From contig CBDEUM010000030.1 of NCBI GenBank assembly GCA_965242925.1, positions 160,001-224,000 on the forward strand: 64,000 nt of DNA, in the 5' to 3' direction. A model generated the notes under the pieces. The model did no database searches and was not told the DNA's origin. It saw only the letters and a list, made by a program, of their open reading frames with translations. Position 1 is the stretch's first letter. Each line of letters starts with the position of its first letter. The DNA is from Roseibacillus sp. (GTDB lineage: Bacteria; Verrucomicrobiota; Verrucomicrobiia; Verrucomicrobiales; Akkermansiaceae). Shown piece after piece: positions 32,516-53,460 of the stretch. Position numbers and translations under genes: made by a program.

Positions 32516-33727
32516 ATGAAGCCCGCCCCCGGTTCCCTGCTTTCCGCCGTCGTGGTCCTCTCCCTCGTCCTCGGCTTCAGTCTGATGGCCCAGCGGGATG
32601 GCGGAAAGTCCCCCGCCCCGGCGGGCCAGGCGGCCGGAAACGTTATTGTTCCTCCTCCCCTGGAAGATCTGGGGAAGGACTATAAGGTCAGGCTGGTCTA
32701 TTTTGTTCCCAGCGACCGCAAGGTGAAGCCCGGTTACCGGGAAAAGTGCGCAGTCCTCATGCGGGTCGTGTCCGACATTTTCCGGAGGGAAATGAAGGCC
32801 AACGGACACAGAACGCGGGGACTGGACTTTGAGTTCGCCCCGGATGGCCGCCTCCAGGTCCACCTCGTGAATGCCAGGCAACCCTCCGCCTTTTACACCG
32901 GAGAACCCTTTGATGTGGATCGTCTCCTGAACTCCCAGCAACAGGAAATCTGGGAAACCACCGGCTATTCCCGCAACCGGCCCACCCTCGTGTTTTCGGA
33001 GGCCGGAGCCGTGGCCGAAGCCAGGCCCGTCCCTCACGTCTATTCGGGTCTCGCCTGCGTGTCCGGCGACATTTTCCGCGACGAGGTCACCGCCTCCACC
33101 ATCGAGGAACAGCTGCGCTACTTCATGGACCCGACCCTGGTGACCAAGGTGGCGGGATCGGAAAAGCGCTCCCGGAACCAGGAATCACAGACCAGCAATG
33201 GCGTCCTCATCCACGAACTGGGCCACATCTTCGGGATGCTGCACGACACCCGTGATCCCCGCAACATCATGATGCGCGGATACGATCATCTCGGACAGAT
33301 GTTCGACCGCAAGACCGCGCCCAGTCGCCCGGTCCGCTTCTCCCCGGCCCACGCTCGAATGGCCGCCGTCAGCCGCTTCTTCAGCGAATCCTTCGACAAG
33401 AGAGACACCAAGGCCCCTGAGATCCACGAATTCAAGGTCGCCAGTCCCCCGCAGGCCGGTGAGAAGACCGTCAAACTCTCCCTCAGCATGAGCGATGACA
33501 AGGGACTGGGACCCCTCGTTGTTCTCCAGCGGGGCGGCGGACAGATCGACGCCCTCGTGAAGGACCTCTCGCTGAAGGGAGCGAGAAAGCGGTCCGGGAT
33601 CCTGACTGCCACAGCTCCCCGGCCCCTGGTGGCCGGACAACCCTTGATCTTCATCGTGAACCTCTTTGATGTGAATGGGAACCTGAGCCAGGCTGTCATC
33701 AACTCACAGGTGACGGCCAAGGAGTGA
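32516..33727 (+). CDS. Secreted zinc metallopeptidase (metzincin-like)
   Basis: Signal peptide; HELGHIFGMLHD followed by Met-turn NIM. Confidence 0.8.
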   Translation: MKPAPGSLLSAVVVLSLVLGFSLMAQRDGGKSPAPAGQAAGNVIVPPPLEDLGKDYKVRLVYFVPSDRKVKPGYREKCAVLMRVVSDIFRREMKANGHRTRGLDFEFAPDGRLQVHLVNARQPSAFYTGEPFDVDRLLNSQQQEIWETTGYSRNRPTLVFSEAGAVAEARPVPHVYSGLACVSGDIFRDEVTASTIEEQLRYFMDPTLVTKVAGSEKRSRNQESQTSNGVLIHELGHIFGMLHDTRDPRNIMMRGYDHLGQMFDRKTAPSRPVRFSPAHARMAAVSRFFSESFDKRDTKAPEIHEFKVASPPQAGEKTVKLSLSMSDDKGLGPLVVLQRGGGQIDALVKDLSLKGARKRSGILTATAPRPLVAGQPLIFIVNLFDVNGNLSQAVINSQVTAKE

Positions 33728-33977
33728 GAACTACGCCATCAGCTCTCGCAAGAGCTGTGCCCGGCTGACTCTCCATTTCTCCCAGTGCTCAAATTCAGAA
33801 ATCGGAGTGGACGAACTGCGGGAAACTCTCTTAGACGAGGCCGGGGACAGCGCTAGCCAGTTCAACGCTCTACGGGCCAAATTCGCACTCTCAGCGCCGA
33901 GGAACGCCGCACCCTGCTTCGCAACCGCCGAAATCGAGAGCTCCGATTGCGTCACTTTCCTTGTGCTCCAGGCCTTT
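33722..33977 (+). pseudogene. Decayed fragment of a tyrosine integrase homologous to 39214..40443
   Basis: Aligns by eye with ~39582-39930 (GAGAACTACGCCATCAGC..., GCCAGTTCAA, ATTCGCACTCTC, GATTGCGTCA, CTCCAGGCCTTT), with substitutions and a ~95-bp internal deletion. Confidence 0.9.
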
Positions 33978-38911: not shown

Positions 38912-38966
38912 AAGGCAACCTTGCTACTGCAGCGCCTCACTGCCGTCAATAAGTGAACCCGCAAAT

Positions 38967-39042
38967 CCCCGGATTATCGTAACCCGTTGAGCGCCAGTGG
39001 AGCCAATGGTCGGATTTGAACCGACGACCTGATCATTACGAA
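38967..39042. repeat. att site (left copy): 3' part of tRNA-Thr plus 31 bp of flank
   Basis: Identical to 48034-48109 except for one mismatch (38976 A vs 48043 C). Confidence 0.95.
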
Positions 39043-39126
39043 ACCAACGGGCTATTGGTAACTCATTAAGTGTCAACGCTTATTGCGGACGGTTTTTTGC
39101 GGTTTCCGGCGTTTCTTGTTGAATCT

Positions 39127-39146
39127 TTGGGCACCATTGGGCACCA
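39127..39146. promoter_or_regulatory. Putative integrase arm-type binding sites (TTGGGCACCA x2)
   Basis: Tandem decamer just inside the left att; the same motif pair occurs at 47996-48016. Confidence 0.6.
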
Positions 39147-39213
39147 AGGGAGGGTTAATCCGCAGCTCTCAACGGCGCCGTAAAGCCACCAAAAAACAAC
39201 ATTCTGACAGGCC

Positions 39214-40443
39214 ATGGCCCGTTACCCGCAATTCCAAGTCAAGCGCGTCCCTGGCAAGAGCACTCGCCGCTGGCAACTCACCATTCCAGCCACCCAGAGT
39301 GAAACCAGACAACGCCGCCGCCTCTATTTCAAGACCCGCGAAAAGGCGATGGCGGAGCGGGACCGGCGCCGGGCCGAGAAAGAGCAATTTGGTCGCCGGG
39401 CCCTCCACTGCGACCCGGGGCTGCGGGCCGAGGCGCTGAAGGCCACGGAGATACTCAAACCCCTCGGAGCCACCATTACCGAGGCGGTGCGGGAGTTCGT
39501 CGAGCGCAGGGAGCGGGCCAATGCCTCGCGGCCCTTCGGAGAGCTCTTCGCCGAGATTGCCGAGCAAAAGCAGCTCACCCGAAGCGAGAACTACGCCATC
39601 AGCTTCCGCAAGAGCTGCGCCCGGCTAACTCCCCATTTCTCCCAGCGCCCGATTTCAGAAATCACGGCGGACGAACTTCGGGATGCTCTCTCCCGGGAGG
39701 CCGGTAATAGCGCCAGCCAGTTCAATGCCCTGCGAGCCCATGCTTCTGTGGTCTGGGGGGTGGCAGCAAAACGCGGATGGGCCCCAAAGAACCTGACAGG
39801 CGCGGTCGATAAAATGGAGCGCAGGGCTGCCCCTATTCGCACTCTCACCGTCGAGGAACTGCGCACCCTGCTTGCAACCGCGGAAATAGAGAGCCCTGAT
39901 TGCGTCATTCCCATCGCCCTCCAGGCCTTTGCAGGCGTTCGAACCGAGGAATTGCGGCGTCTGCGCTGGGACTGCCTGGACTTGGAGGAGGGCGAAATGG
40001 CCCTCGACGAATCCATCACGAAAACAAACCACTACCGGGTCGTTTCGCTCCAGCCCAACCTTCTCGCCTGGATCAGGCGCTACGCCCCTGCCAAAGCCCA
40101 CCGTTGGGGGCCGCTTATCCCTGCTGACTGGAAGCGCAAGGCCACTCGCATTCGCAACCGGGCGGGTTGGGCCGTGGTCGATCTCAAAACTAAGGACAGC
40201 GCCGCTGCCCAGCCACCCGCAGAGGCACCTGCATGGCCTACCAATGCCCTAAGGAAGTCTTTTGGTTCAGCCCACCTGAAGGCCTTCGGCAGTCTGGATA
40301 CTACTATCACAGAGATGGGACATCATGGTGATCCACGTACGTTCTGGCGATTCTATCACAGGGGATATTCAAGACGGGAAGCCCTCGCCTACTGGCAAAG
40401 CGGACCAGGGGGCGAGGAGATCAAGTTCACGGTGGCGGCATGA
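39214..40443 (+). CDS. Tyrosine recombinase / phage-type integrase
   Basis: Catalytic pattern GVRTEE (R), TKT (K), NALRKSF (xxxR), MGH, RFY (Y); adjacent to att. Confidence 0.93.
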   Translation: MARYPQFQVKRVPGKSTRRWQLTIPATQSETRQRRRLYFKTREKAMAERDRRRAEKEQFGRRALHCDPGLRAEALKATEILKPLGATITEAVREFVERRERANASRPFGELFAEIAEQKQLTRSENYAISFRKSCARLTPHFSQRPISEITADELRDALSREAGNSASQFNALRAHASVVWGVAAKRGWAPKNLTGAVDKMERRAAPIRTLTVEELRTLLATAEIESPDCVIPIALQAFAGVRTEELRRLRWDCLDLEEGEMALDESITKTNHYRVVSLQPNLLAWIRRYAPAKAHRWGPLIPADWKRKATRIRNRAGWAVVDLKTKDSAAAQPPAEAPAWPTNALRKSFGSAHLKAFGSLDTTITEMGHHGDPRTFWRFYHRGYSRREALAYWQSGPGGEEIKFTVAA

Positions 40444-40952
40444 ATGAGGCAGATGAGGGAAAGCGACCGTCTATCGCCGATCTGCACGACTTGCTTTGTC
40501 ACTACGGCGGACGCGTAGTCCTTCATCATGAGAGCGGGACACCATGGACTTTCGCGGCCCCCCGCGGCGAGATGCAGGAGGCAGTGAATCGCTATCTGGG
40601 CTCCCAGAAAGATTCGCCGGACCAGGAGGCAGCAGCAAGGGATCTCGGACGTTGGGTTGAGCTGATACTTTTGGAAGGAAAGGAGAACGCGCGATCGGAA
40701 CTTTGCTATCTTGCATTACGCCTCGGAAAAGACGTTGAGAAAGGGCCAACCAAACAAGCCGAAGTCGTTGGCAAGGTCATGGAATTCGTGTGGGACCGAC
40801 GGGAGAAGGAGCTTTCCACAGGAGCGTTAACGGCCGCGTTGCCACACATTGGGGAAAGCACCATCCGAGAGGTCCTCGCAGAGATTGGGAAGCGAGGAAT
40901 CCTCACAATCGACGACCGTGAGAAGTGGGGAAAGGGATCTCCAGAAAAATAA
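40440..40952 (+). CDS. Hypothetical protein, possible C-terminal winged helix
   Basis: ATGA overlap with the integrase stop; C-terminal LSTGALTAALPHIGESTIREVL resembles an HTH. Confidence 0.6.
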   Translation: MNEADEGKRPSIADLHDLLCHYGGRVVLHHESGTPWTFAAPRGEMQEAVNRYLGSQKDSPDQEAAARDLGRWVELILLEGKENARSELCYLALRLGKDVEKGPTKQAEVVGKVMEFVWDRREKELSTGALTAALPHIGESTIREVLAEIGKRGILTIDDREKWGKGSPEK

Positions 40953-41005
40953 AAAAGTTCCGGAGATAGGTGCACCCCGGAGGGAATCGAATAAGACCCC
41001 TGGGA

Positions 41006-41227
41006 ATGGCTACAAATGAAACTACACCGAAGGCCGTCGGTCCGGAAGAGGTGGCGATCTTTCTATCGCTGTTCCTCCCTGACGGAAGACCGAACCGCGA
41101 AAAGGTTCTCAAACTCGTGCGACAGGGGAAAATTCCCTGCGTACGATTTTCCAACAAGGTGATCCGCTTCTATCTCGATGAAGTGGAAGCGGCCACCCGC
41201 GGCAGAAAGGAGGAGGCGCGTGGGTAA
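41006..41227 (+). CDS. Excisionase/AlpA-like small HTH DNA-binding protein
   Basis: KVLKLVRQGKIPCVRFSNKVIRFYLDEVEA, typical of the HTH_17/Xis fold. Confidence 0.75.
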   Translation: MATNETTPKAVGPEEVAIFLSLFLPDGRPNREKVLKLVRQGKIPCVRFSNKVIRFYLDEVEAATRGRKEEARG

Positions 41228-41639
41228 TATCAACGACATTTTCGCCGGCGACTACCTTCGCGCTGAGGACCTTCCCGCCGGCCGACCGGTGTGGGTGGAG
41301 ATCAGGAGCGTCGATGTCCGCCACTTCCCGGACGGAGCAAAGCTGGAACTAGCTTTCAAGGACAAGCGGAAACACTTCCTGGCAAACATGACCAATTCTC
41401 GAATCATCGCTGACCTCTACGGGGGCGAGACTGACGATTGGATCGAAAGGATGATTGGGCTGTACTCCACCAAGGTTGAGTTCCAGGGCCGGATGGTGCC
41501 TTGCATCCGCGTGAAGCCGCCCGAGAGCGTCCGCCACCGGGACGAACGGCCATTGGTGGATCCAGAACCGCCGATGAAGGATTCCCGTGCAGTATTGCGG
41601 AGCTATTCGGCCGACGACGAGGAGGAATTGCCTTTCTGA
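41220..41639 (+). CDS. Phage-type putative ssDNA-binding protein
   Basis: AGGAGG RBS before GTG 41220; YLRAEDL...NMTN...YG.ETDDW...VEFQG...IRV pattern; acidic tail DDEEELPF. Confidence 0.65.
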   Translation: MGNINDIFAGDYLRAEDLPAGRPVWVEIRSVDVRHFPDGAKLELAFKDKRKHFLANMTNSRIIADLYGGETDDWIERMIGLYSTKVEFQGRMVPCIRVKPPESVRHRDERPLVDPEPPMKDSRAVLRSYSADDEEELPF

Positions 41640-41662
41640 CAGATGAAGTCTGGAAAGAGAAC

Positions 41663-41684
41663 ACCCGCGGTGGCAGCCGCGGGT
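41663..41684. promoter_or_regulatory. GC-rich hairpin between the SSB-like and rep-like genes
   Basis: ACCCGCGG-TGGCAG-CCGCGGGT inverted repeat. Confidence 0.4.
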
Positions 41685-41837
41685 AAAGTGAAGACCAGTG
41701 CTGAGAGGCAAATGATCAACGAGGTGACTCTAATAGCCCGCGGACCAGAATTCAAGTGCAGTGTATTCTGTGCGGTTTCTGGCATGAGGACAGGCACTGG
41801 AGAGCTTGGGTTTCTCTAATTTGAGGAAGGAGGCATT

Positions 41838-42611
41838 TTGAGCATTCCAGCTTTGAACTGGGCCAAGGAAGACTGCAAGGCTCGCGGTTCCTTGCGGGGA
41901 ATCATCATGGTGCTTGCTGACCATGCCTCTCCAAAACCCACCCAGGGAACCGGGGATTTTCATGTCTGCTGGACGGGGCAGAAAACAATAGCCAGAGAGT
42001 CCGGATGGTCCGTGAGGTGCGTTGAGGACAACATTCCCAAACTAGCCAAGCACGACATCAAGGTTCTTCCCAGGCGGGTGCCAACGCCAAACGGAGCATG
42101 CAACCTTTACGTCTTTCCAATCAGTGATTCCCTAGAGGTTCCCACGGCATACGTGGAAACTGACGAGAAGGTTCCCACATCTGGTGCTGAGGTTCCCACG
42201 ACTCGCACGGAGGTTCCCACATCTCACGCAGAAGTTCCCACGGGTCCTGCGGGTAAACCCAAACCTAAACCCAAAGAGGAACCAGAATTAAAACCCAGTC
42301 CATCCAGCGAGCGAGCTACTGCTGAAGACGTTAATCTTCTTTGTAAGGAAACCACAGAAGGGGTTCTCTGGAAAGATGCGGGGGTTGGGCCGGGTTCGGC
42401 ATGTACGCTCAATGATCTATTTCTTAAAATCCAGACCTTGAAGAACCTGCTCCCTGAGCAGCGATGCAGAGCGCACCAAATCGCTCGCAAGGTCTGGGCG
42501 GACACTGATGGCGGCAAGCACCTCAGCGGCAAGCCTGTGAGGGACCTACAGGCAGTCCTGATGACCCGGCTCCAGAGTGAAGGTGTGATTAAGAAGAAGC
42601 GGAGGAAATGA
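41838..42611 (+). CDS. Phage-type replication initiator with N-terminal winged helix (HTH_36-like)
   Basis: GGAGG RBS and TTG start; MSIPALNWA...IIMVLADHA...CWTGQKTIARESGWSVRCV; internal iteron-like repeats. Confidence 0.7.
   Translation: MSIPALNWAKEDCKARGSLRGIIMVLADHASPKPTQGTGDFHVCWTGQKTIARESGWSVRCVEDNIPKLAKHDIKVLPRRVPTPNGACNLYVFPISDSLEVPTAYVETDEKVPTSGAEVPTTRTEVPTSHAEVPTGPAGKPKPKPKEEPELKPSPSSERATAEDVNLLCKETTEGVLWKDAGVGPGSACTLNDLFLKIQTLKNLLPEQRCRAHQIARKVWADTDGGKHLSGKPVRDLQAVLMTRLQSEGVIKKKRRK
42136..42297. repeat. Putative replication origin: five A(G/A)GTTCCCAC iterons plus an A-rich tract
   Basis: Copies at 42136, 42169, 42190, 42211 and 42232 (spacing 33, 21, 21, 21), followed by TAAACCCAAACCTAAACCCAAAGAGGAACCAGAATTAAAACCC. 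Confidence 0.7.
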
Positions 42612-42871
42612 CACAATCCACGCGGATTTTGGCAGGTCATTATCTGACAGGAGGCACGTGGAATAAGTGGTGGTTCCTTGTTTTGGAATGGCCCATGAAA
42701 TTCTCCCCCCATGCCCCCCGCATCGCACCCTCGATTGCGGCCGGTAGGGTTCCCATTGCCTCAGATTTGGGCCCGGCCCGCTGGTGAACGTCACGGGATT
42801 ACGGCCCTGAGGAATACCTTGGCGGCATTGGAGGCTACTGGGGCGGCCGGAACTGTCAGTAACTCGCGGCG

Positions 42872-45800
42872 TTACGGCGTTCCTTCGGGAACATCGGTCA
42901 CCCAGGGATAGAGGCTGAAGCGGTAACGATAGATCGCGGCCTCGCTGTCACGAGCCAGAGTAGACCCGATTTGTAGTCCCTCGCTGGTGAGCCAATTCGC
43001 GTTCAAACCGCCGTAGTTGGCACCAATAGTAACCCAGGCGCGATCCTCACCCGCGGTGCTACGCTGAAGCTCCACCATCACGTCCGGCGGCAGACCTGCG
43101 AGATCGACAGCCTGAACGAGAACGTCCGAATCGGTGACCCCCACCGAAAAAGGAATGCGGGGAGCGCTGTCGGGATCGAGCGGATCCCGGTCGAAGATAT
43201 ATTCCAACAGGTTCACGTTACCATCGCGATCCGGATCGGACAACGCTCCACTAATTGCGAGATCGTCAAGCTGAGCTTGGTCGAACGTCCGCGCCCGCCA
43301 GGTTGCCATTGGGCTCATGAGGTCCAACCGAATGGGCAGGCGGAAAAACTTGTCCGGTTCCAATGTGGGAGAAAATTCGACGACAAAACGATCCGACCCG
43401 ACCAGCGGCACGGTAACTTTATCGGGTGCGTCGGAATAAGTGGCTTGCCAACTGTCAACCAAGCGCAGCAGCGTTATGGTTCCACTGGCCGGTTCTTCCA
43501 CTACCGTGACCGAGAAATAGGGTGGAATCGGCAAAGAAAAGTGCTCTGTTGCAGGCAGTCCAGCAGTTATGGGAGGCTGGAGTGTTCCACGTAAACTGGT
43601 TGCCCATATATAAAACTTGATTGGGTTCGACACGCCGGCCTCGGTGGTCACCTGGTAACTGAGAGAAGTGACTCCCGTAAAATCGGGAGTGGGGTGAAAA
43701 CGAAAATCTCCCGTCTGAGGATCAACATCGAGGACAGTTCCCTCGGCCTGCGAATCATCGACGACCAGATCGAGGATCTCCCGGTAGGGAGCCCCATTTT
43801 CATCAAACAATCCGTCGTTGCTGTACAGGTTGTGGTGAAGCGTACTTGTATCAAAGATGGTAGTAGGATCCGCAACAAACCAGTCCGGTTCCCCGGCGAC
43901 CCTGGTCGAGCCAGGACCCACCTCGATAGCCACCACCGCTTCCTCCATTCTGACCAGCTGGAGGCTGTCCAGTTGGAAGCCCAGGTCTGAGCTGCTGGGT
44001 GTTATCGGGTTGAGGCCGTTGTGCAGGGAAATCGCCAGACAGTGATTTCCAGCAGAGAGTTCGACTTGATCCACGTTGACGACATGCTCGGCAGTTTCTT
44101 CTGGCCCTCCGGCCCAGGCCTCAGCAGTTCCTTCCGCCATGAGGAAGTAGCCGTCGGGCGCGGTCAACGCCACATGGACACCGGGCTCGAAGGAGCGAAA
44201 GAGCTCCTCGCCATCGAGGTAGGCAATCACGCCGTCATCCCGGCGTATCCGGGCCTCCAGCCGATAAATGCCCGACTCGGCAACCGGGAACATCGCACGC
44301 AGATAGGCTGTATAGCGCCGTTCAGGTTCGGGAAGGCCGAGGTTTATGTCGGGAGCTAAACCGCTCCCTGGTTCGGGAACTAAATTCCCGAGCACACCGT
44401 ATCCTATGGAGCCACCTTGCGCCCGGAGCCACGTTCGGGGCACGTCAAATCCGAGGGTGTTCCACTCCTCATCGAACCCCGGAGTATCCAGCCCGGGGGG
44501 ACGGCCGTCGAGGGGATTGAACGCTCGCCACGTCGATCGAACGTTCAGCACTGGGACCGGTTCACCGAGTTCCACAGCGTAGCTGAAGAGTTCCGTGCCA
44601 ATAAAATTCCGATGCGGTCGATAGCTGAAGGTTCCATCCGGGTTGAAGGTCAGATCCCCGTGCTCGGGGTCACGAGTCACCCAGACTTCACCCGGTAGCG
44701 GATCCGGCAGTCCCGCGTCATTCTGAAGCACACCCGGATGCACCAGCCCATCGGCAACAAGCGTTCTTCCCTGGGCCATGGCATAACCGTCGTCGGCAAG
44801 GTTGGTAACGGGGACGCTACCTGCGTCATTCGGGTCAGATCCTTCCACGATTTCATCCCCGTCATTAAAGCCGTCTCCATCTGTATCTGAGTCATTGGGA
44901 TTGGTGCCATGGACTACAATCTCCTGGTAGTTGGTCAGCCCGTCCCCGTCCGGGTCCCGGCCGTCCCGGTCAAAGTCCGCTCCCACCGTTTGGTTCTCGT
45001 CCATCATAGTCAGGCTGAGCGGGTTATCGGTGCCGGTGGCGTCCCCGGTCCAACCGGTGAAGAGATAGCCGGGGTCAGGGATGGCAGTGAGCGTGGCGCT
45101 GGTGCCGGGGAGGTAGGTTCCAGCACCTCTGATAGTGCCATTTTGTGAATTGCCAATGGCCAGTATCGCGAAAATATGAAGCGGATAAACCCTCACGTGC
45201 CCGGCATTGTCGCCATTTCCATTGTTACCTTCCGCCCCAATAGCCACCCGGTTACCATCAGCACTAAGAGAGACACTCCAACCGCTATAATCGCCAGCGG
45301 CCTCGCCATCGATATCCTGTCCAAGTTGGATCCACGTGTTTCCAGATAATTCATAAATGCGCACGTGCCCGGCAAGGGTGCCATTTCCATCGTTGCCGGG
45401 CGCCCCAATAGCCACCCGGTTACCATCCGCACTAAGAGAGACACTCCAGCCGCTCCCATCGTCAGCGGCCTCGCCCTCGATATCCTGTCCAAGTTGGATC
45501 CACGTGTTGCCAGATAACTCATAGATGCGTACGTGCCCGGGAAGCGCCGAGGGAGACCGGCCCCATCGTTGGGGCGCCCCAATAGCCACCCGGTTACCAT
45601 CAGCACTAAGAGAGACACTATGGCCGCTCTGGTCGTCAGCAGCCTCGCCATCGATATCCTGTCCAAGTTGGATCCACGTGTTGCCAGATAACTCGTAGAT
45701 GCGTACGTGTCCGGCATTGGTGCCATTTTCATCGTTCCAAGGCGCCCCAATAGCCACCCGGTTACCATCAGCACTAAGAGAGACACTATAGCCGCTATCG

Positions 45801-46408
45801 TCGCCAGCGGTCTCGCCATCGATATCCGATCCAAGTTTGATCCAACTGCGTCCAGATAACTCATAGATGCGCACGTGCCCGGCTCGGTCGCCATTTCCAT
45901 CGTTACCGTACGCCCCAATAGCCACCCGGTTACCATCAGCACTAAGAGAGACACTATAGCCGCTAAGGTCGCCAACGGCCTCGCCATCGATATCCTGTCC
46001 AAGTTGGATCCACGTGTTGCCAGATAACTCGTAGATGCGTACGTGCCCGGCATCGGAGCCATTTCCATCGTTGCCGGGCGCCCCAATAGCCACCCGGTTG
46101 CCATCAGCACTAAGAGAGACACGATAGCCGCTCCCATCGTCAGCGGCCTCGCCCTCGATATCCTGTCCAAGTTGGATCCACGTGTTGCCAGATAACTCAT
46201 AGAGGCGTACGTGCCCGGCATCGGAGCCATTTCCATCGTTCCAAGGCGCCCCAATAGCCACCCGGTTGCCATCAGCACTAAGAGAGACACTCTCGCCGCT
46301 CCAATCGCCAGCGGCCTCACCATCGATATCCTGTCCGAGCTGACTTTGCGCTGCGGCACCCTGCACCAAGCAAAGGATCGCAGCCAAAAGTAGGACAATT
46401 GTTTTCAT
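42872..46408 (-). CDS. Secreted adhesin-like protein: 7-blade FG-GAP-like beta-propeller, InlB-B-like repeat, Ca-binding DxDxDG repeats and Ig/cadherin-like domains
   Basis: Signal peptide; seven 56-aa repeats (VSLSADGNRVAIGA...GHVRIY); PDPGYLFTGWTGD; DPDGDGLTNYQE; NPDGTFSYRP. Confidence 0.9.
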   Translation of the reverse strand: MKTIVLLLAAILCLVQGAAAQSQLGQDIDGEAAGDWSGESVSLSADGNRVAIGAPWNDGNGSDAGHVRLYELSGNTWIQLGQDIEGEAADDGSGYRVSLSADGNRVAIGAPGNDGNGSDAGHVRIYELSGNTWIQLGQDIDGEAVGDLSGYSVSLSADGNRVAIGAYGNDGNGDRAGHVRIYELSGRSWIKLGSDIDGETAGDDSGYSVSLSADGNRVAIGAPWNDENGTNAGHVRIYELSGNTWIQLGQDIDGEAADDQSGHSVSLSADGNRVAIGAPQRWGRSPSALPGHVRIYELSGNTWIQLGQDIEGEAADDGSGWSVSLSADGNRVAIGAPGNDGNGTLAGHVRIYELSGNTWIQLGQDIDGEAAGDYSGWSVSLSADGNRVAIGAEGNNGNGDNAGHVRVYPLHIFAILAIGNSQNGTIRGAGTYLPGTSATLTAIPDPGYLFTGWTGDATGTDNPLSLTMMDENQTVGADFDRDGRDPDGDGLTNYQEIVVHGTNPNDSDTDGDGFNDGDEIVEGSDPNDAGSVPVTNLADDGYAMAQGRTLVADGLVHPGVLQNDAGLPDPLPGEVWVTRDPEHGDLTFNPDGTFSYRPHRNFIGTELFSYAVELGEPVPVLNVRSTWRAFNPLDGRPPGLDTPGFDEEWNTLGFDVPRTWLRAQGGSIGYGVLGNLVPEPGSGLAPDINLGLPEPERRYTAYLRAMFPVAESGIYRLEARIRRDDGVIAYLDGEELFRSFEPGVHVALTAPDGYFLMAEGTAEAWAGGPEETAEHVVNVDQVELSAGNHCLAISLHNGLNPITPSSSDLGFQLDSLQLVRMEEAVVAIEVGPGSTRVAGEPDWFVADPTTIFDTSTLHHNLYSNDGLFDENGAPYREILDLVVDDSQAEGTVLDVDPQTGDFRFHPTPDFTGVTSLSYQVTTEAGVSNPIKFYIWATSLRGTLQPPITAGLPATEHFSLPIPPYFSVTVVEEPASGTITLLRLVDSWQATYSDAPDKVTVPLVGSDRFVVEFSPTLEPDKFFRLPIRLDLMSPMATWRARTFDQAQLDDLAISGALSDPDRDGNVNLLEYIFDRDPLDPDSAPRIPFSVGVTDSDVLVQAVDLAGLPPDVMVELQRSTAGEDRAWVTIGANYGGLNANWLTSEGLQIGSTLARDSEAAIYRYRFSLYPWVTDVPEGTP

Positions 46409-46420
46409 AGCACCGTGACT

Positions 46421-47912
46421 CTACTCCTCCACGACGCGCAGGAACCATCTGGGTCTTGCAGACGGGTTGAAGGAATAGGAGCGTTGGATGATGTCGCCGG
46501 TACCGGTGATGCCCGCTTCCTCGACGCTCCAGTCCCGCAGGTTGGAGGAACTCTCGATCCGGTAGGGCTTACCGCTCTCGGCGGTGAATCCAAGGCTCAG
46601 GGCGTAGAGTTGACCCGGTCGCACGATGAATGTTTCCAACGTCAGATCGAGTGTCAGCGTTTCATCGCCTGGAAGCTGATAAACCCTCACGTGCCCGGCA
46701 CCGCCGCCATTTCCATCGTTATAGATCGCCCCAATAGCCACCCGGGTACCATCAGCACTAAGAGAGACACTATAGCCGCTATCGTCGCCAGCGGTCTCGC
46801 CATCGATATCCGATCCAAGTTTGATCCAACTGCGTCCAGATAACTCATAGATGCGCACGTGCCCGGCACCGCCGCCATTTCCATCGTTAGAGGGCGCCCC
46901 AATAGCCACCCGGTTACCATCAGCACTAAGAGAGACACTATAGCCGCTAAGGTCGCCAGCGGCCTCGCCATCGATATCCTGTCCAAGTTGGATCCACGTG
47001 TTTCCAGATAACTCGTAGATGCGTACGTGCCCGCCACCGCCGCCATTTCCATCGTTTCCTTCCGCCCCAATAGCCACCCGGTTACCATCAGCACTAAGAG
47101 AGACACTATAGCCGCTAAGGTCGCCAGCGGCCTCGCCATCGATATCCTGTCCAAGTTGCATGCTCCCGCGTCTAGATAACTCATAGATGCGTACGTGCCC
47201 GGCATGGAGGCCATTCCCACGGTTATAGGGCGCCCCAATAGCCACCCGGTTACCATCAGCACTAAGGGAGATACTCATGCCGCTCTGGTCGTAAGCGTTC
47301 TCGCCATCAATATCCTGTCCAAGTTGGATCCACCCGCGTCTAGATAACTCATAGATGCGTACGTGCCCGGCATCGGGGCCATTTCCATCGTTCCGGAACG
47401 CCCCAATAGCCACCCGGTTACCATCAGCACTAAGAGAGACACGATAGCCGCTCTGGTCGCCACCGGCCTCGCCATCGATATCCTGTCCAAGTTGGATCCA
47501 CGTGTTTCCAGATAACTCGTAGATGCGCACGTGCCCGACATGTGCCACCGTTCCTGATCGCCCCAATAGCCACCCGGTTACCATCAGCACTAAGAGAGAC
47601 ACTATAGCCGCTCCCATCGTCAGCGGCCTCGCCATCGATATCCTGTCCGAGCTGCACCCAACTGTTTCCAGATAACCCGTAGATGCGTACGTGCCCGGCA
47701 CTGGAGCCATTTTCATCGTTCCGGGGCGCCCCAATAGCCACCCGGTTGCCATCAGCACTAAGAGAGACACTCCTGCCGCTACTGTCGCCAGCGGCCTCGC
47801 CATCGATATCCTGTCCAAGCTGACTTTGCGCTGCGGCACCCTGCACCAAGCAAAGGATCGCAGCCAAAAGCAGGACGCGTGTAAGAAATGTTGCCCTAGC
47901 CGTTCCGGTCAC
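46421..47912 (-). pseudogene. Second 7-blade FG-GAP-like beta-propeller protein with conserved C-terminal domain; frameshift near 47545
   Basis: ORF 47430..47912 holds the signal peptide and blades 1-2; ORF 46421..47839 holds blades 3-7 and the C-terminus; the blade-2 loop is 22 nt instead of 30 nt. Confidence 0.8.
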
Positions 47913-47995
47913 AAGAAGTCCATTAACACTTTCGACACAGGGGTAGCAAAACCTAGCGGTGCAAATTTAGGGCAGGAACGCCAATTCCTTGTTTT

Positions 47996-48016
47996 TTGGG
48001 CACCTATTGGGCACCA
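47996..48016. promoter_or_regulatory. Putative integrase arm-type binding sites (TTGGGCACC x2)
   Basis: TTGGGCACCTATTGGGCACCA just inside the right att. Confidence 0.6.
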
Positions 48017-48064
48017 GCCAGAAGCGGCCGGACCCCCGGATTCTCGTAACCCGTTGAGCGCCAG

Positions 48065-48139
48065 TGGAGCCAATGGTCGGATTTGAACCGACGACCTGAT
48101 CATTACGAATGACCTGCTCTACCCCTGAGCTACATTGGC
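48065..48139 (-). tRNA. tRNA-Thr (anticodon CGT)
   Basis: Reverse complement GCCAATGTAGCTCAGGGGTAGAGCAGGTCATTCGTAATGATCAGGTCGTCGGTTCAAATCCGACCATTGGCTCCA. Confidence 0.97.
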
Positions 48140-48509
48140 TTTTTACTGGCGTTCAGGAGGTTGGGTTGCTTTTGCCCGTCTCCAGCTTGCAAGCGGAGAA
48201 GGGATCGGCACTGGAGATGCCCCCGGACGGCCGCGATTTACCCCCGGCCTGATCTCTTCGCAAGCCTGTATCGGCCGACGCCCCCCCTTTGCCCTCTCTC
48301 CACCGCTGGATCCGCAGGTTTCCCATTGCCCCCCGATTCCCGGGTCCCTCCCCACAGCCAGTCAGTGTCCTCGGCCTGCCACGTTCCGGTCGATTACAAA
48401 AAGGGGCCCGATATGTAATAGCCTGCGGAGATCGGAGCCATTTTGATCTCAATTCGTAAAGGATGACAGTTTTTCGGCTTGGCTGTGTGACCCGGTCAAT
48501 GCCAACCTT

Positions 48510-50801: not shown

Positions 50802-51809
50802 TCACTCCTCCCGGACCCGCCAGAACAACGCCGACCGGCTTTCCGCTTCGGCAGAAAGAATAATCCTGACCGGGGCCCCGGTTCCCTGCACACCGGACCG
50901 TCGTATTCGCCACCTCACCAGGTTCGGGGATTCCTCCACGAGGTAGAATTTGCCGGCCGCGGTGCTGAAGGTCAGGGAGATGCCTTCCAGAGACCCCAGA
51001 GGGGGAAAAATGGGACTGAGATTCAGGATCGAAAGCGCAGTGCGCACCGCGGGGGGATCGGGAAAATCCACCACGCTGTCCAGCCACTCGAGATACTGGG
51101 TCACCCGGGTCTGGTAATCGTAGGCCCCATACTGGCCAACCCTCACCCCCCTCGGACCGTCACCCCAGGAATTGAGTCCCGCGATATGGGACACCCCGTC
51201 GACCTCGATGAAGGCCGGTCCCCCGCTGTCGCCGGCCGCCCCCACGCCCTCCAGGGGGGTCACTCCCTTCTCCCCGGGACGCTCGAAGAGGATCTCAATG
51301 AAGTGCTCGTTGACCTGGCTCACGACGTTGGTGCACTTGCGCAGTTTGCCGTCATTGCTGGCCCCACGTTCTCCCCGCACCCCGGTTCCGCTATCACCCC
51401 GGCCAACGAGCGTGATGACCGATCCGGTCTCCTCCGGTCCTCGGTAAATTGGAAGGGGCGCGACTCCCTGCACTGGCTCCGAGAGGCGCACAAGGGCGAT
51501 GTCATACTCGTCCCGTCTCCGGTTCCACTGGGGGTGCAGGATCACTTCCGCCACCGTATACGCCACTCCATTGACCTGGAGCACCTTTCCCGCATTCACT
51601 TCCGCCGCACAGTGGGCCACGGTGAGGAGGTAGGACTCGTGGACGAGGGTGGCGGTGCAGTCTCCCCTCTCGATGAGATCCACGAGGGCCGGGTAGTCCG
51701 AGTCAGCAACAACGTAATCGGAATCGGGCAGATCATCGCGGATGATGATCCCCGACGCGGTCGGCAGGAAAAGTAACCACAGAGCCACCACTGCGAGGCC
51801 ACGGCTCAT
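50802..51809 (-). CDS. Secreted S1 (trypsin-like) serine protease with conserved C-terminal domain
   Basis: LTVAHC, DIALVRL and GDSGGP triad motifs; signal peptide. Confidence 0.9.
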   Translation of the reverse strand: MSRGLAVVALWLLFLPTASGIIIRDDLPDSDYVVADSDYPALVDLIERGDCTATLVHESYLLTVAHCAAEVNAGKVLQVNGVAYTVAEVILHPQWNRRRDEYDIALVRLSEPVQGVAPLPIYRGPEETGSVITLVGRGDSGTGVRGERGASNDGKLRKCTNVVSQVNEHFIEILFERPGEKGVTPLEGVGAAGDSGGPAFIEVDGVSHIAGLNSWGDGPRGVRVGQYGAYDYQTRVTQYLEWLDSVVDFPDPPAVRTALSILNLSPIFPPLGSLEGISLTFSTAAGKFYLVEESPNLVRWRIRRSGVQGTGAPVRIILSAEAESRSALFWRVREE

Positions 51810-51954
51810 GCCCCGTAAAGCTGAGTGCATGCCCAAGCTTGCTATGGAAACAAGGGAATTACCAGATCCGGGTTGCAGGGATGGAAAAGCCCGGAAGCTC
51901 CCTCCCGGACGAGACTTTCCCCCACGAATCCACGAAGCGTTGCGGGCAGGGTTC

Positions 51955-53460
51955 CTACTTCCTCCCGCACCTCTTGAGGATGGCCTTCACGAGGCCGGGG
52001 ATATCGCTTTCGGCGGCCTCAATCTCGGGCTCATGGCCCTGTTCGCGCAACTTACCACTGGTAACGGGACCGATGCTGGCGGCCTTGCAACCCTCCGGCC
52101 AGGGTAACCCGAGGGCAAAAAAGCTCTCCACCGTGGACCCGCTCGTGAAGGTGATCACATCGGCTCCGTCTTCGCTGAGACGCTCCACCGCCCCGGTGGG
52201 ATCCCCGCTCTCCGGAACGTTGCGATAGGCAATGCACTTGTCCACGATGGCCCCCTGCTTCATGAGCTCCTCGTAGAGGATATCCCGTGTTTCCTCCGCC
52301 TTCACCCACAGGACCGTCTGGCTATCGACGTGTTCCCTGCTGAAAGCCTCCACCAGGCCCTCCGCCACGAAGGTCTCGGGAAGCAGGTCAGTGGCGAAGC
52401 GATACTCCGCGATTTTCTTCGCCGTGCTCGGGCCGATCGCCGCAATCTTCGGCTTGCCGAAACTGCGGGCGTCGTCGTAGGCCGCAAAAAAGGCGTCAAA
52501 GAAGCGTTCCACCCCGTTGGGACTGGTAAAGACCACCCAGTCGTAGGTGTGCACGTCGGCAATCAGCCGGGAAAACTCCACCCGGTCCTCCGGCGGCTCG
52601 ATACGGATGGTCGGCAACTCGACCACATCCGCTCCCAGTTCCAGCAACCGCGCGCTCAACTCCCCGGCCTGCTCCCGGGTGCGGGTCACCACCACCCGCT
52701 GACCGAACAAGGGACGCGACTCAAACCAGTTGATCTTGGCCCGCTCCTTCACCACCTCTCCCAGGATGGCGACCGCCGGGGACTTGAACTGTTCCTTCTC
52801 CGCGATCTCCGCCATGGTGGCCAGCGTGCCCTCAATGGTGCGCTGCCGTCCGGTGGTGGCCCAGCGCGTCAGGGCCATGGGCGTCCCGGGATCGGCTCCG
52901 TGCTCGATCAAGGCAGCGGTAATCTCTGCCAACCGCGAGACCCCCATGAGAAAAACCCGGGTCCCGTCCGCCTCTGCCAGTTTACGATAGTCGAGACTGG
53001 TTTCCTCCTTGGTCGGATCCTCGTGGCCGGTGAAGATGGTGAGCTGAGAGCAGTGATCGCGGTGAGTGACCGGAATCCCCGCATAAGCGGCCCCGCCAAT
53101 CGCCGAGGAAATTCCCGGCACGATCTCGAAGGGCACCCCCGCCTCAGCCAGTTCGGCAGCCTCTTCCCCTCCCCGCCCGAAGATCATGGGATCCCCTCCC
53201 TTCAGGCGCACCACCGTTTTCCCTTCCTTCGCCTTTTCCACGATCAGGGCGTTGATTCCCTCCTGGGGGAGGGCGTGATCCGCTGCGCGCTTGCCCGCAA
53301 AAATCTTCTCGCACCCCTTGGGCAGCCAGTGAAGGAACTCTGCACTGCTGAGGGCATCGTAGATGAGCACGTCCGCCTTCACGAGACACTCCCGTCCCTT
53401 CACGGTCAGCAGGCCGGGATCCCCCGGCCCAGCCCCTACGAGGTAACATTTTCCAGTCAT
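51955..53460 (-). CDS. cobA: Uroporphyrinogen-III C-methyltransferase / synthase fusion (CobA-HemD)
   Basis: LVGAGPGDPGLLT, RLKGGDPMIFGRGGEE; HemD part VVVTRTREQA, FTSPNGV, ASIGPVT. Confidence 0.95.
   Translation of the reverse strand: MTGKCYLVGAGPGDPGLLTVKGRECLVKADVLIYDALSSAEFLHWLPKGCEKIFAGKRAADHALPQEGINALIVEKAKEGKTVVRLKGGDPMIFGRGGEEAAELAEAGVPFEIVPGISSAIGGAAYAGIPVTHRDHCSQLTIFTGHEDPTKEETSLDYRKLAEADGTRVFLMGVSRLAEITAALIEHGADPGTPMALTRWATTGRQRTIEGTLATMAEIAEKEQFKSPAVAILGEVVKERAKINWFESRPLFGQRVVVTRTREQAGELSARLLELGADVVELPTIRIEPPEDRVEFSRLIADVHTYDWVVFTSPNGVERFFDAFFAAYDDARSFGKPKIAAIGPSTAKKIAEYRFATDLLPETFVAEGLVEAFSREHVDSQTVLWVKAEETRDILYEELMKQGAIVDKCIAYRNVPESGDPTGAVERLSEDGADVITFTSGSTVESFFALGLPWPEGCKAASIGPVTSGKLREQGHEPEIEAAESDIPGLVKAILKRCGRK

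What the first reader, a model, noticed from the sequence alone, without database searches (positions are those of the whole stretch)
45185..47912. Mobile pair of 7-blade beta-propeller genes with fixed DNA framework and codon-level hypervariable sites: candidate diversifying binder system
Seen: 14 blades of ~168 bp across two tandem genes. The framework GTCTCTCTTAGTGCTGATGG(C/T)AACCGGGTGGCTATTGGGGCG is almost invariant, including synonymous positions. Variation is whole-codon and concentrated at a few sites. The residue before SG reads W,G,L,D,Q,G,Y / S,G,Q,Q,L,L,D. The residue after SG reads E,Y,Y,Y,H,W,W / R,Y,Y,M,Y,Y,Y. The pair after IGA reads PW,PG,YG,PW,PQ,PG,EG / PR,IR,FR,PY,EG,PS,IY. 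The pair after NG includes SD, DR, TN, TL, DN, SS, PD, LH, GG. Established: in integrin-alpha/FG-GAP propellers such loops form the ligand-binding face. Inference: homogenised frameworks with aromatic/charged variable loops behave like a repeat-protein binding repertoire under diversifying selection, here carried as the sole cargo of an integrative element.
Basis: partly seen in the sequence, partly recalled or inferred. Interest (0 to 1): 0.8.

Follow-up and report, generated by a model that had tools for sequence, protein, structure and literature searches.

The report
Repetitive propeller genes with variable loops
Two neighbouring genes on a small mobile DNA element encode secreted integrin-like seven-bladed propellers whose blades are almost copies of each other except at six loop positions on one face; this looks like a fast-changing binding surface, but it is typical of a very large protein family in marine bacteria and viruses.

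Summary
On the minus strand, 14 blades of about 168 nt lie in two tandem genes. The 42-nt core is exact in 11 of 14 blades and within 2 mismatches in all 14. Six codons per blade (14, 17, 33, 34, 40, 41) carry nearly all the amino-acid variety. Their dN is 1.32, against a framework dS of 0.16.

By strand order in an AlphaFold model (pLDDT 89.7), the six sites lie in the two loops on the same face of an integrin-alpha-like propeller.

The genes sit in a 9,067-bp tRNA-Thr integrative element with a tyrosine integrase. Contigs from three metagenome studies show the precise empty site.

- Gene B is broken by an 8-nt deletion in blade 2.
- Blade A5 has a compensated frameshift.
- Gene A runs on for about 770 more residues.
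- The pattern is not special to this element. The family has 51,094 clusters, the same positions vary in relatives, and it is common in viral contigs.
- No reverse transcriptase was found.

Verdict: this is a new member of a known kind, most likely evolving by concerted evolution plus diversifying selection, as in fungal NLR repeats. This scan noted the same pattern earlier on other DNA.

The parts
38967..39042 (.). attL: a 76-nt direct repeat that copies the 3' part of tRNA-Thr plus 31 nt downstream of it
   Evidence: It is 99% identical to 48034-48109, with a spacing of 9067 nt. Contigs of runs X2, X4 and X6 join 38937-38966 directly to 48034.
39214..40443 (+). Tyrosine integrase, 409 aa
   Evidence: Pfam Phage_integrase at 43.9 bits and Phage_int_M at 32.2 bits. 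PHROG phrog_1 integrase, E 4e-28.
40440..40952 (+). 170-aa ORF of unknown function inside the element
   Evidence: No family above cut-off in Pfam, NCBIfam or PHROGs.
40970..41227 (+). 85-aa ORF, possibly an excisionase-like HTH protein
   Evidence: Pfam HTH_17 at 20.4 bits, below the 27-bit cut-off. This is a weak hit.
41178..41639 (+). 153-aa ORF of unknown function
   Evidence: phrog_21613 (function unknown), E 1e-7.
41838..42611 (+). 257-aa ORF, weakly like a replication initiator, with an internal 21-nt repeat
   Evidence: PHROG replication-initiation families at E 4.6e-6 to 4.6e-4. Pfam HTH_36 below cut-off. Repeat family D6 at 42169-42242.
42872..46408 (-). Gene A, 1178 aa. It consists of a signal-peptide-like N-terminus, a seven-bladed FG-GAP_2 propeller, an InlB-type B-repeat, TSP3 repeats, and Big_9/cadherin-like domains.
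   Evidence: ORF. Pfam FG-GAP_2 E 9.3e-33, Flg_new_2 E 1.3e-18, TSP3_bac E 2e-12, Big_9 E 5.6e-10.
45185..46345 (-). Propeller A: blades A1-A7. Six are 168 nt; A5 is 174 nt, with a -2/+8 compensated frameshift near 45545-45572.
   Evidence: Model m06e957818ad4: pLDDT 89.7, pTM 0.91. Fold match to integrin alpha.
44800..44801 (.). Module boundary after the TSP3 linker. In sequencing runs, the sequence on either side of it is joined to other partners.
   Evidence: Loose ends fall at 44800/44801 in all four runs laid. In X1 the depth is 3.4 to the left and 6.7 to the right. Relatives L014, L020 and L025 diverge from the window exactly there.
46421..47912 (-). Gene B. It has the same signal peptide, seven blades B1-B7, and a ~70-aa C-terminal domain. 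It is interrupted by an 8-nt deletion in the 2-3 loop of blade B2, near 47543.
   Evidence: Two overlapping ORFs in different frames. Blade B2 is 160 nt. FG-GAP_2 hits on both ORFs.
48034..48109 (.). attR: the second copy of the 76-nt repeat, overlapping the tRNA
   Evidence: Contigs of X2, X4 and X6 diverge from the window exactly at 48034.
48065..48139 (-). tRNA-Thr (CGT), the integration target
   Evidence: ARAGORN.

Best explanation
Genes A and B encode secreted modular surface or extracellular proteins. Each has at its N-terminus a seven-bladed, integrin-alpha-type (FG-GAP_2) beta-propeller of the 'highly repetitive' kind.

The 168-nt blades are kept alike by recent amplification and by recombination between blades and between the two genes (concerted evolution). 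Six codons per blade are the exception. Codons 14 and 17 lie in the loop from strand 4 to strand 1. Codons 33, 34, 40 and 41 lie in the loop from strand 2 to strand 3. Selection keeps these six different. With 7 blades this puts about 42 variable side chains, rich in aromatic and charged residues, on one face of the disc, which is the likely ligand-binding face. The ligand is unknown; a glycan or a cell-surface molecule is the best guess.

The pair was brought in by a 9.07-kb tRNA-Thr integrative element with a tyrosine integrase. Gene B is now a pseudogene or a split gene.

Shown: the repeats, the site-specific excess of non-synonymous change, the fold, the loop assignment, the element boundaries and empty site, and the family-wide recurrence. 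Inferred: selection as the cause, binding as the function, secretion, and recombination as the homogenising process.
For: In the window:
1. Framework pS is 0.147 and pN 0.064. At the six sites pN is 0.62 (dN 1.32), about 8 times the framework dS of 0.164. Diversity at four-fold degenerate framework sites is 0.128.
2. Blades of A and B intermix in framework distance: A3-B6 differ at 1 position, B1-B5 at 2, and A3-B3 and A3-B5 at 3 each, out of 108 columns. There is no A(i)-B(i) pairing. A 121-nt exact tract is shared between A3/A4 and B6/B7.

Structure:
3. The model has 7 x 4 strands. Strands occupy unit positions 18-21, 27-32, 43-51 and 54 to +7. The six sites therefore fall in the 4-1 and 2-3 loops, which in a beta-meander lie at the same end of the blade. 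The best solved folds are integrin alpha propellers.

Independent relatives show the same positions:
4. In 29 fetched proteins with at least 6 full blades, within-protein entropy peaks at positions 12, 14, 17, 33, 34, 40 and 41 (1.8-2.3 bits). Positions 2, 4, 26, 27 and 49-54 vary between proteins but not within them.
5. The ratio of hypervariable-site dN to framework dS is 6.6, 5.6, 5.9 and 3.9 in loci L009, L016, L019 and L021.
6. In 22 of 22 viral loci with at least 5 full blades, pN at the six sites exceeds framework pS.
7. Two near-allelic proteins, P0011 and P0012, differ at 13 of 72 hypervariable positions against 31 of 587 framework positions (Fisher p 3.6e-4).
8. At these positions the family favours Y, W, F, R, Q and L.

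Mobile element:
9. The element is defined by the att repeats, the tRNA, the integrase and the empty site.
10. Occurrence is patchy: the propeller was found in 4 of 19 other genomes of the genus, and the integrase has no match above 32% identity in them.
Against: - No binding or expression data exist. The ligand is a guess.
- The comparison of hypervariable dN with framework dS assumes that both have the same age. If short conversion tracts homogenise the framework but stop at the mismatched loop codons, the ratio overstates the rate of adaptive change. Selection for retained diversity would still be needed.
- Comparisons between blades are between paralogues, not a proper site-model test on orthologous alleles.
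- Coordinates of the model were not available to me. 'One face' rests on strand order and on the recalled integrin literature, not on measured distances.
- The assembly is a 42-contig draft, and unitigs break in the repeats. Blade order, the B2 deletion and the A5 indels could be assembly errors. No contig of the four runs showed an alternative at those two places, but coverage there was not shown piece by piece.
- Only 527 of 3865 blades and 22 of 78 viral loci were regular enough to be counted.
Confidence: 0.75

Rival explanations
1. Relaxed constraint only. The blades were amplified recently and the six loop positions are simply free to drift. There is no diversifying selection and no special binding role.
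For: The sites are in surface loops. The framework is under purifying selection, with pN/pS of 0.43 overall and 0.19 in the core, so loops would look variable by contrast. Gene B is already decaying.
Against: Neutral sites cannot diverge faster than synonymous sites. Here dN at the six codons is 1.32 against a framework dS of 0.16. The excess recurs in 4 related loci and in 22 of 22 viral loci. Residue use at these sites is biased toward aromatics and Arg, not random.
Confidence: 0.1
2. Silent-cassette variation. The broken gene B serves as a store of alternative blades or loops that are copied by segmental gene conversion into the expressed gene A. This would work like the vls or pilS cassettes of pathogens (that comparison is recalled, not tested here).
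For: The two genes are adjacent and in the same orientation, and share their signal-peptide coding sequence and framework. Gene B is frameshifted. A 121-nt exact tract is shared between A3/A4 and B6/B7. A and B blades intermix. In the window, the same 33-34 pair occurs with different 40-41 pairs, for example PW with SD and TN, and PG with SD and TL.
Against: Only one A-B tract of 70 nt or more was found. Gene B keeps its own start, signal peptide and C-terminal domain, so it looks like a recently broken gene and not a promoterless cassette. No within-population switching was seen. The contigs laid cannot show it. Most relatives have single intact genes with the same pattern.
Confidence: 0.06
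3. Targeted mutagenesis. A dedicated enzyme, such as the reverse transcriptase of a diversity-generating retroelement, rewrites the loop codons.
For: The variation is confined to a few codons, and all three codon positions change.
Against: No RVT_1 match in the 4.58-Mb, 89.9%-complete genome, although the same search rang in 3 of 14 control genomes. There is no template repeat. The only copies of the blade in the genome are these two genes. The changes are not limited to adenine-derived positions (codon table). The element encodes only an integrase and small ORFs.
Confidence: 0.02
4. Assembly artefact. The two-gene layout, the frameshift and some blade mosaics come from mis-joining 85-93% identical repeats from mixed strains.
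For: This is a draft assembly. Unitigs of all four runs break in the repeats, and 66 of the 140 X1 records laid fit two places. X1 shows twofold depth steps, a second path at 44801 and a variant joint 46700>46063. The related contig L014 has a 4-blade second propeller where P0012 has 7.
Against: The codon pattern itself cannot be an artefact. It appears in thousands of proteins, including ones on long contigs from named isolates, for example a 3.79-Mb contig of an Algibacter strain, and in 22 of 22 viral loci. The unique flanks (42800-45257, 46367-46700, 47841-48200) are each covered by X1 contigs, with at most one differing letter.
Confidence: 0.15

Closest known systems
Highly repetitive beta-propellers recently amplified from single blades (Pereira & Lupas 2022, PMC9218822; I read passages only)
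   Same: Blades are near-identical down to the nucleotide level. [quoted passage not shown] That paper also reports independent amplification in close homologues, which fits the positions here that vary between proteins but not within them.
   Different: The passages found do not treat variable loop positions. 'Hypervariable' occurs 0 times in the text. Their examples are mainly WD40/WRAP. Here the repetitive propeller sits on an integrative element and next to a broken twin.
Fungal NLR repeats with high internal conservation (HET-E/NWD WD40 propellers; Dyrka et al. 2014, PMC4986451, passages read; Paoletti 2007 as cited there)
   Same: A beta-propeller with repeats about 85% alike, concerted evolution with repeat exchange within and between genes, and positive diversifying selection on a few positions per repeat that map to the interaction surface.
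   Different: A different propeller superfamily (WD40 against FG-GAP/VCBS). Those are intracellular NOD-type receptors, whereas these are secreted modular proteins. There is no NACHT/NB-ARC domain here. RIP mutagenesis is fungal. Repeat-number polymorphism was not established here.
Integrin alpha-subunit beta-propeller and bacterial integrin-type propellers (Chouhan et al. 2011, PMC3192720; abstract and passages read)
   Same: A seven-bladed FG-GAP fold, with Foldseek TM 0.70-0.74 and E about 1e-17 to integrin alpha-V, alpha-5, alpha-6 and alpha-M headpieces. Bacterial versions are more regular than the human ones and are sometimes tandem. In integrins the 4-1 and 2-3 loops form the ligand-binding upper face (recalled from Springer 1997 and Xiong 2001, not read here).
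   Different: Sequence identity to integrins is only 16-21%. No solved structure was found by sequence at E <= 0.001. There is no beta-subunit partner and no transmembrane or cytoplasmic part. Calcium-loop status was not tested.
tRNA-targeting integrative elements and genomic islands with a tyrosine integrase
   Same: A direct repeat of the tRNA 3' end at both borders, the integrase next to attL, small regulatory and replication-like ORFs, cargo at the far end, and an empty site in other populations.
   Different: It is very small (9.07 kb), and more than half of it is the two propeller genes. No conjugation, mobilisation or capsid genes were recognised. In relatives the same att site holds a different island, with a P0012-like propeller gene directly at attL.

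Membership tests
FG-GAP_2 (PF14312) integrin-alpha-type seven-bladed propeller | Pfam model matched above its gathering score, in repeated copies | tested here: met
   Gene A scores 112.6 bits against a cut-off of 23, in 6 stretches. The gene B ORFs score 71.7 and 38.6 bits.
FG-GAP_2 (PF14312) integrin-alpha-type seven-bladed propeller | Seven four-stranded blades closing into a toroid, with a fold like integrin alpha | tested here: met
   AlphaFold2 model with pLDDT 89.7, pTM 0.91 and 27 strands. At least 500 PDB matches, the top ones integrin alpha headpieces at TM 0.70-0.74. This is a prediction, not a solved structure.
FG-GAP_2 (PF14312) integrin-alpha-type seven-bladed propeller | Calcium-binding hairpin in the 1-2 loop (DxDxDG type) | not tested
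   The 1-2 loop here is invariant (unit positions 22-26), but it was not compared with the calcium motif and no metal was modelled.
Highly repetitive (recently amplified) beta-propellers | High identity between consecutive blades, at the nucleotide level too | tested here: met
   85% matches over 6.8 copies in each array. Framework pS 0.147. The 42-nt core is exact in 11 of 14 blades.
Repeat domains under concerted evolution plus diversifying selection (fungal NLR type) | Excess non-synonymous change at a few positions per repeat that map to the binding surface | tested here: met
   dN of 1.32 at six codons against a framework dS of 0.16. The sites are in the 4-1 and 2-3 loops. The result recurs in relatives. 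This is a proxy test, not a codon site model.
Repeat domains under concerted evolution plus diversifying selection (fungal NLR type) | Repeat exchange within and between genes, and repeat-number polymorphism | tested here: inconclusive
   A and B blades intermix, and there is one 121-nt shared tract. L014 has 4 blades where P0012 has 7, but that may be assembly collapse.
Repeat domains under concerted evolution plus diversifying selection (fungal NLR type) | NOD (NACHT/NB-ARC) signalling architecture | tested here: not met
   No such domain in gene A or gene B. This locus may work like the fungal repeats but is not a member of that family.
Diversity-generating retroelement | Reverse transcriptase plus a template repeat with adenine-specific changes | tested here: not met
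   0 RVT_1 matches in the own genome (89.9% complete), with controls positive in 3 of 14 genomes. No further blade copy in the genome. The changes affect all bases.
tRNA-integrating tyrosine-recombinase element | Integrase, flanking direct repeats that include the tRNA 3' end, and an empty site elsewhere | tested here: met
   Integrase. A 76-nt repeat at 99% identity. tRNA-Thr. Contigs of X2, X4 and X6 join 38966 to 48034.
tRNA-integrating tyrosine-recombinase element | Excisionase and transfer functions | tested here: inconclusive
   Only a sub-threshold HTH_17 hit and weak replication-initiator PHROG hits. No transfer genes were recognised.
Silent-cassette antigenic variation (vls/pilS type; recalled) | Promoterless donor cassettes and one-way segmental conversion into an expression site | tested here: inconclusive
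   Gene B is broken but keeps its start and signal peptide. One shared tract was found. There are no population data that could show switching.

The most novel reading that the evidence does not exclude
The tandem pair is a working two-part variation device. The frameshifted gene B is kept as a donor archive of blades and loops. Short-tract gene conversion shuffles these into the expressed gene A, so a small integrative element delivers a self-diversifying binder to new hosts. This would be a bacterial counterpart, based on secreted proteins, of fungal NLR repeat shuffling or of silent-cassette antigenic variation, and it would use a propeller module that is also widespread in marine phages and giant viruses.
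Probability: 0.07. Interest if true: 0.75.

Novelty: new member of a known kind. Interest (0 to 1): 0.35.

Why it matters
This family is one of the commonest secreted repeat modules in marine bacteria and their viruses. The propeller of gene A matched 51,094 clusters at 50% identity, and 479 of 583 candidate viral stretches encode a relative. Yet no solved structure is detectable by sequence, and I found no paper on its variable positions. A full-text search for FG-GAP + hypervariable + bacteria gave 3 papers, none about this.

The window gives a clean, compact example of a fixed scaffold with six variable codons per blade on one face. It sits on a mobile element whose borders and empty site are both defined. 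If the variable face binds glycans or cell surfaces, the family would be a natural scaffold for changeable specificity in particle, host or prey attachment.

As a single locus, however, it is ordinary for its family.

Tried and rejected
- Scan of genome contigs with gene A. Only 3 of 45 pattern matches encoded relatives (Saprospiraceae, Flavobacteriales, and one marginal hit). It was of no use for close relatives.
- Integrase against viral contigs. There were 3 pattern matches and none was a relative, so the element could not be tied to a known virus.
- Integrase in 19 genomes of the same genus. The best match is 32% identical. No sister element was found in those searched.
- NCBIfam and Pfam on the C-terminal domain of gene B. 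No family matched.
- Sequence search of the PDB with propeller A. There were 0 hits at E <= 0.001.
- Promoter and terminator scan of 42600-48200. It found 0 promoter-like sites (shuffles average 2.9) and 3 terminator-like sites (shuffles average 4.0). This is uninformative for a Verrucomicrobiota-like host.
- nhmmer extraction of DNA units. It merged neighbouring blades and gave only 15 full units. I replaced it with six-frame protein HMM mapping.
- Laying Logan contigs to look for loop variants within a population. Contigs break in the repeats and drop rare variants. A variant loop at 46700-46726 in X6 and a joint 46700>46063 in X1, X2 and X4 exist, but they cannot be told apart from paralogues or other strains.
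- Earlier notes of this scan for this genome. There were none.


Full report
WHAT IS THERE

The window is part of a 4.58-Mb draft genome in 42 contigs, 89.9% complete. A housekeeping gene next to the locus (51955-53460) has its closest named relatives in marine Akkermansiaceae/Verrucomicrobiota MAGs, at 72-78% identity.

Two adjacent genes lie on the minus strand.

- Gene A (42872-46408, 1178 aa) starts with a hydrophobic signal-peptide-like segment. Then come seven FG-GAP_2 blades, an InlB-type B-repeat (Flg_new_2), bacterial TSP3 repeats and Big_9/cadherin-like domains.
- Gene B (46421-47912) begins with nearly the same signal-peptide coding sequence. It has seven blades and a roughly 70-residue C-terminal domain with no family match.

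CHECKING THE OBSERVATION

Tandem Repeats Finder reports two arrays of period 168, each with 6.8 copies and 85% matches. Anchor motifs give 7 + 7 units. It matched in 0 of 100 shuffles.

Six codons (14, 17, 33, 34, 40, 41) have 5-7 different residues and 1.8-2.65 bits of entropy. Codons 12 and 52-54 are moderately variable. The rest is nearly fixed.

- Blade B2 is 160 nt. An 8-nt deletion in its NDGNG loop shifts the frame, so gene B is split into two overlapping ORFs.
- Blade A5 is 174 nt. It has a -2 and a +8 indel about 20 nt apart, so a short stretch is read out of frame and gives an aberrant loop. The structure model is poor there.
- Gene A continues about 770 residues beyond the propeller.

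IS IT MORE THAN CHANCE OR DRIFT?

I used Nei-Gojobori counts over all blade pairs, masking the two indel loops and the tails of the last blades.

| Codon class | pS | pN | dS | dN |
|---|---|---|---|---|
| 50 framework codons | 0.147 | 0.064 | 0.164 | not given |
| 6 variable codons | not used | 0.62 | not used | 1.32 |

Diversity at 26 four-fold degenerate framework sites is 0.128. Non-synonymous divergence at the six codons is therefore about eight times the synonymous divergence around them. Neutral drift cannot produce that. Of the 483 pairwise comparisons at these codons, 313 differ by two or three bases.

The framework is not strictly invariant at silent sites. Only the 42-nt core nearly is.

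STRUCTURE

An AlphaFold2 model of propeller A, built on a 16-sequence alignment, has mean pLDDT 89.7 and pTM 0.91, with seven four-stranded blades. Foldseek finds integrin alpha headpieces first, at TM 0.70-0.74, E about 1e-17 and 16-21% identity. No solved structure is detectable by sequence.

In unit coordinates the strands are 18-21, 27-32, 43-51 and 54 to +7 of the next unit. Positions 12, 14 and 17 therefore lie in the 4-1 loop, and 33, 34, 40 and 41 in the 2-3 loop. In a beta-meander these two loops are at the same end of the blade. The invariant 1-2 loop and the mildly variable 3-4 loop are at the other end.

From memory of Springer 1997 and Xiong 2001, which I did not read here, the 4-1/2-3 face is the ligand-binding face in integrins.

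THE MOBILE ELEMENT

A 76-nt direct repeat (38967-39042 and 48034-48109, 99% identical, 9067 nt apart) contains the 3' part of tRNA-Thr(CGT) at 48065-48139. Next to attL lies a tyrosine integrase. It is followed by four small ORFs, one weakly HTH_17-like and one weakly like a replication initiator.

I laid Logan contigs of four runs on 42800-48200. Contigs of three metagenome studies (X2, X4, X6) leave the window exactly at 48034 and continue with a sequence that matches window 38937-38966 without a mismatch. That is the empty site, so the 9.07-kb segment is a discrete insertion. The two propeller genes make up 5,041 of its 9,067 nt.

The integrase has no match above 32% identity in the 19 other genomes of the genus that were searched. 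The propeller was found in 4 of those 19, and in 12 of 41 relatives when G000 itself is counted.

NOT SPECIAL TO THIS ELEMENT

An exhaustive phmmer search with propeller A finds 51,094 clusters (at 50% identity) at E <= 0.001, and 11,091 at E <= 1e-30. The word-indexed search returns more than 5,200 hits. Many are multi-propeller proteins of marine Bacteroidota with T9SS sorting domains, and others come from Verrucomicrobiota and Gammaproteobacteria.

Of the 245 proteins fetched, 244 contain blades. Of their 3865 blades, 527 are full and ungapped. In the 29 proteins with at least six such blades, within-protein entropy is highest at positions 12, 14, 17, 33, 34, 40 and 41 (1.8-2.3 bits). Positions 2, 4, 26, 27 and 49-54 differ between proteins but are uniform within each one. 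That is the mark of independent amplification or concerted evolution.

At the variable positions the family favours Y, W, F, R, Q and L.

The exact 42-nt framework occurs in 15 metagenome stretches. Blades from related genes give these ratios of hypervariable-site dN to framework dS:

| Locus | Ratio |
|---|---|
| L009 | 6.6 |
| L016 | 5.6 |
| L019 | 5.9 |
| L021 (same genus, different framework) | 3.9 |

Two near-allelic full-length proteins, P0011 and P0012, differ at 13 of 72 hypervariable positions against 31 of 587 framework positions (p 3.6e-4).

In IMG/VR viral contigs, 479 of 583 pattern matches encode relatives, among them phage and giant-virus contigs. Of the 78 loci kept, 22 have at least five regular blades. 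In all 22, pN at the six positions exceeds framework pS. Positions 17, 14, 34 and 33 are among the six most variable in 21, 20, 19 and 14 of the 22 loci.

An earlier report of this scan on other DNA (e1-5306782) reached the same reading. Another (e1-5409339) described blade swapping in phage tail genes.

HOW THE BLADES STAY ALIKE

Framework distances mix A and B blades freely: A3-B6 differ at 1 position, B1-B5 at 2, and A3-B3 and A3-B5 at 3 each, out of 108 columns. There is no A(i)-B(i) correspondence. One 121-nt exact tract links the A3/A4 junction with the B6/B7 junction.

In the window, the same 33-34 pair occurs with different 40-41 pairs. This suggests short exchanges or recurrent change.

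No reverse transcriptase is present in the assembled genome, there is no extra blade copy that could act as a template, and the changes are not adenine-specific. A retroelement mechanism is therefore not supported.

MODULAR SHUFFLING AROUND THE PROPELLER

Relatives L014, L020 and L025 (L025 is from the same genus) carry the left chromosomal flank, including the att copy. About 230 nt further on they have the 3' end of a P0012-like two-propeller gene. They match gene A only from 44801 upward.

All four runs show alternative partners at 44800/44801. In X1, which holds 80% of the sampled words and may be the source sample, depth is 3.4 on the left of that point and 6.7 on the right. The alternative C-terminus is not in the assembled genome.

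This point is therefore a module boundary that recombines. It is also the weakest joint of the assembly.

Elsewhere the propeller is fused to BspA-type LRRs, next to a tRNA-Asn (L017).

COMPARISON WITH WHAT IS KNOWN

Highly repetitive propellers amplified from single blades are catalogued, and FG-GAP/alpha-integrin members make up 2% of that data set. I read passages only of PMC9218822, and they do not discuss variable positions.

Regular seven-bladed integrin-type propellers in bacteria, sometimes in tandem, were described in 2011 (PMC3192720, abstract and passages).

The closest working analogue is the fungal NLR repeat system. There, WD40 propellers have about 85% internal identity, evolve by concerted evolution with repeat exchange, and show positive selection on four positions per repeat on the interaction surface (PMC4986451, passages). 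The present genes lack any NOD domain, so they may work like that system but are not members of it.

A full-text search for FG-GAP + hypervariable + bacteria gave three papers, none on this topic. I consulted no supplements.

VERDICT

The locus shows a diversified binding face on a homogenised scaffold and is carried by a real integrative element. One of the two genes is broken, no dedicated diversifying mechanism is evident, and the pattern is a general property of a very large family that this scan has met before.

It is a new member of a known kind, of moderate interest. Its main value is as a compact, well-bounded example.

The cassette-donor reading of the broken twin remains possible but unlikely; I put it at about 7%.

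Noticed in passing
window 46421-46640 (C-terminus of gene B); 50802-51010 (C-terminus of the trypsin-like protease gene 50802-51836); about 9593-9805; also contigs C12 and C23 of G000: A C-terminal domain of about 70 residues, ending in a short acidic tail, is shared by gene B, a secreted trypsin-like protease, a 926-aa ORF and others in this genome, and by P0011/P0012. It has no Pfam or NCBIfam match. It may be a lineage-specific sorting or anchoring signal.
   Followed up: partly
window 33708-33884: A fragment that is 69% identical to residues 119-177 of the element's integrase, with an in-frame TGA. It is probably the remnant of an older related element about 5 kb upstream.
   Followed up: no
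window 42169-42242: Three tandem 21-nt units inside the replication-initiator-like ORF 41838-42611, encoding a short repeated peptide.
   Followed up: no
window 44800/44801: A sharp branch point in contigs of all four runs laid. The Big_9/cadherin-like C-terminal part of gene A and the propeller-TSP3 part are each joined to other partners in other populations. Relatives diverge from the window at the same base.
   Followed up: partly
L017:2884-9623: In a 240-kb metagenome contig, a 1277-aa protein combines FG-GAP_2 blades with BspA-type leucine-rich repeats, Flg_new_2 and TSP3, next to a tRNA-Asn. Beside it are an RCC1-propeller/TSP3 protein and an 876-aa ORF with weak NACHT/AAA hits.
   Followed up: no
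L014:2..2506 compared with P0012: An allele of the two-propeller gene has only 4 blades in its second propeller where P0012 has 7. This is either true repeat-number polymorphism or assembly collapse.
   Followed up: no
proteins P0075, P0091, P0106: Close family members are filed under eukaryotic algae (Pycnococcus, Chaetoceros, Aureococcus), two of them with T9SS-type names. This suggests bacterial contamination of those assemblies or gene transfer.
   Followed up: no
L046-L123 (IMG/VR): The propeller family is frequent in viral contigs, including several giant-virus MAG contigs, at up to 70% identity to propeller A.
   Followed up: partly
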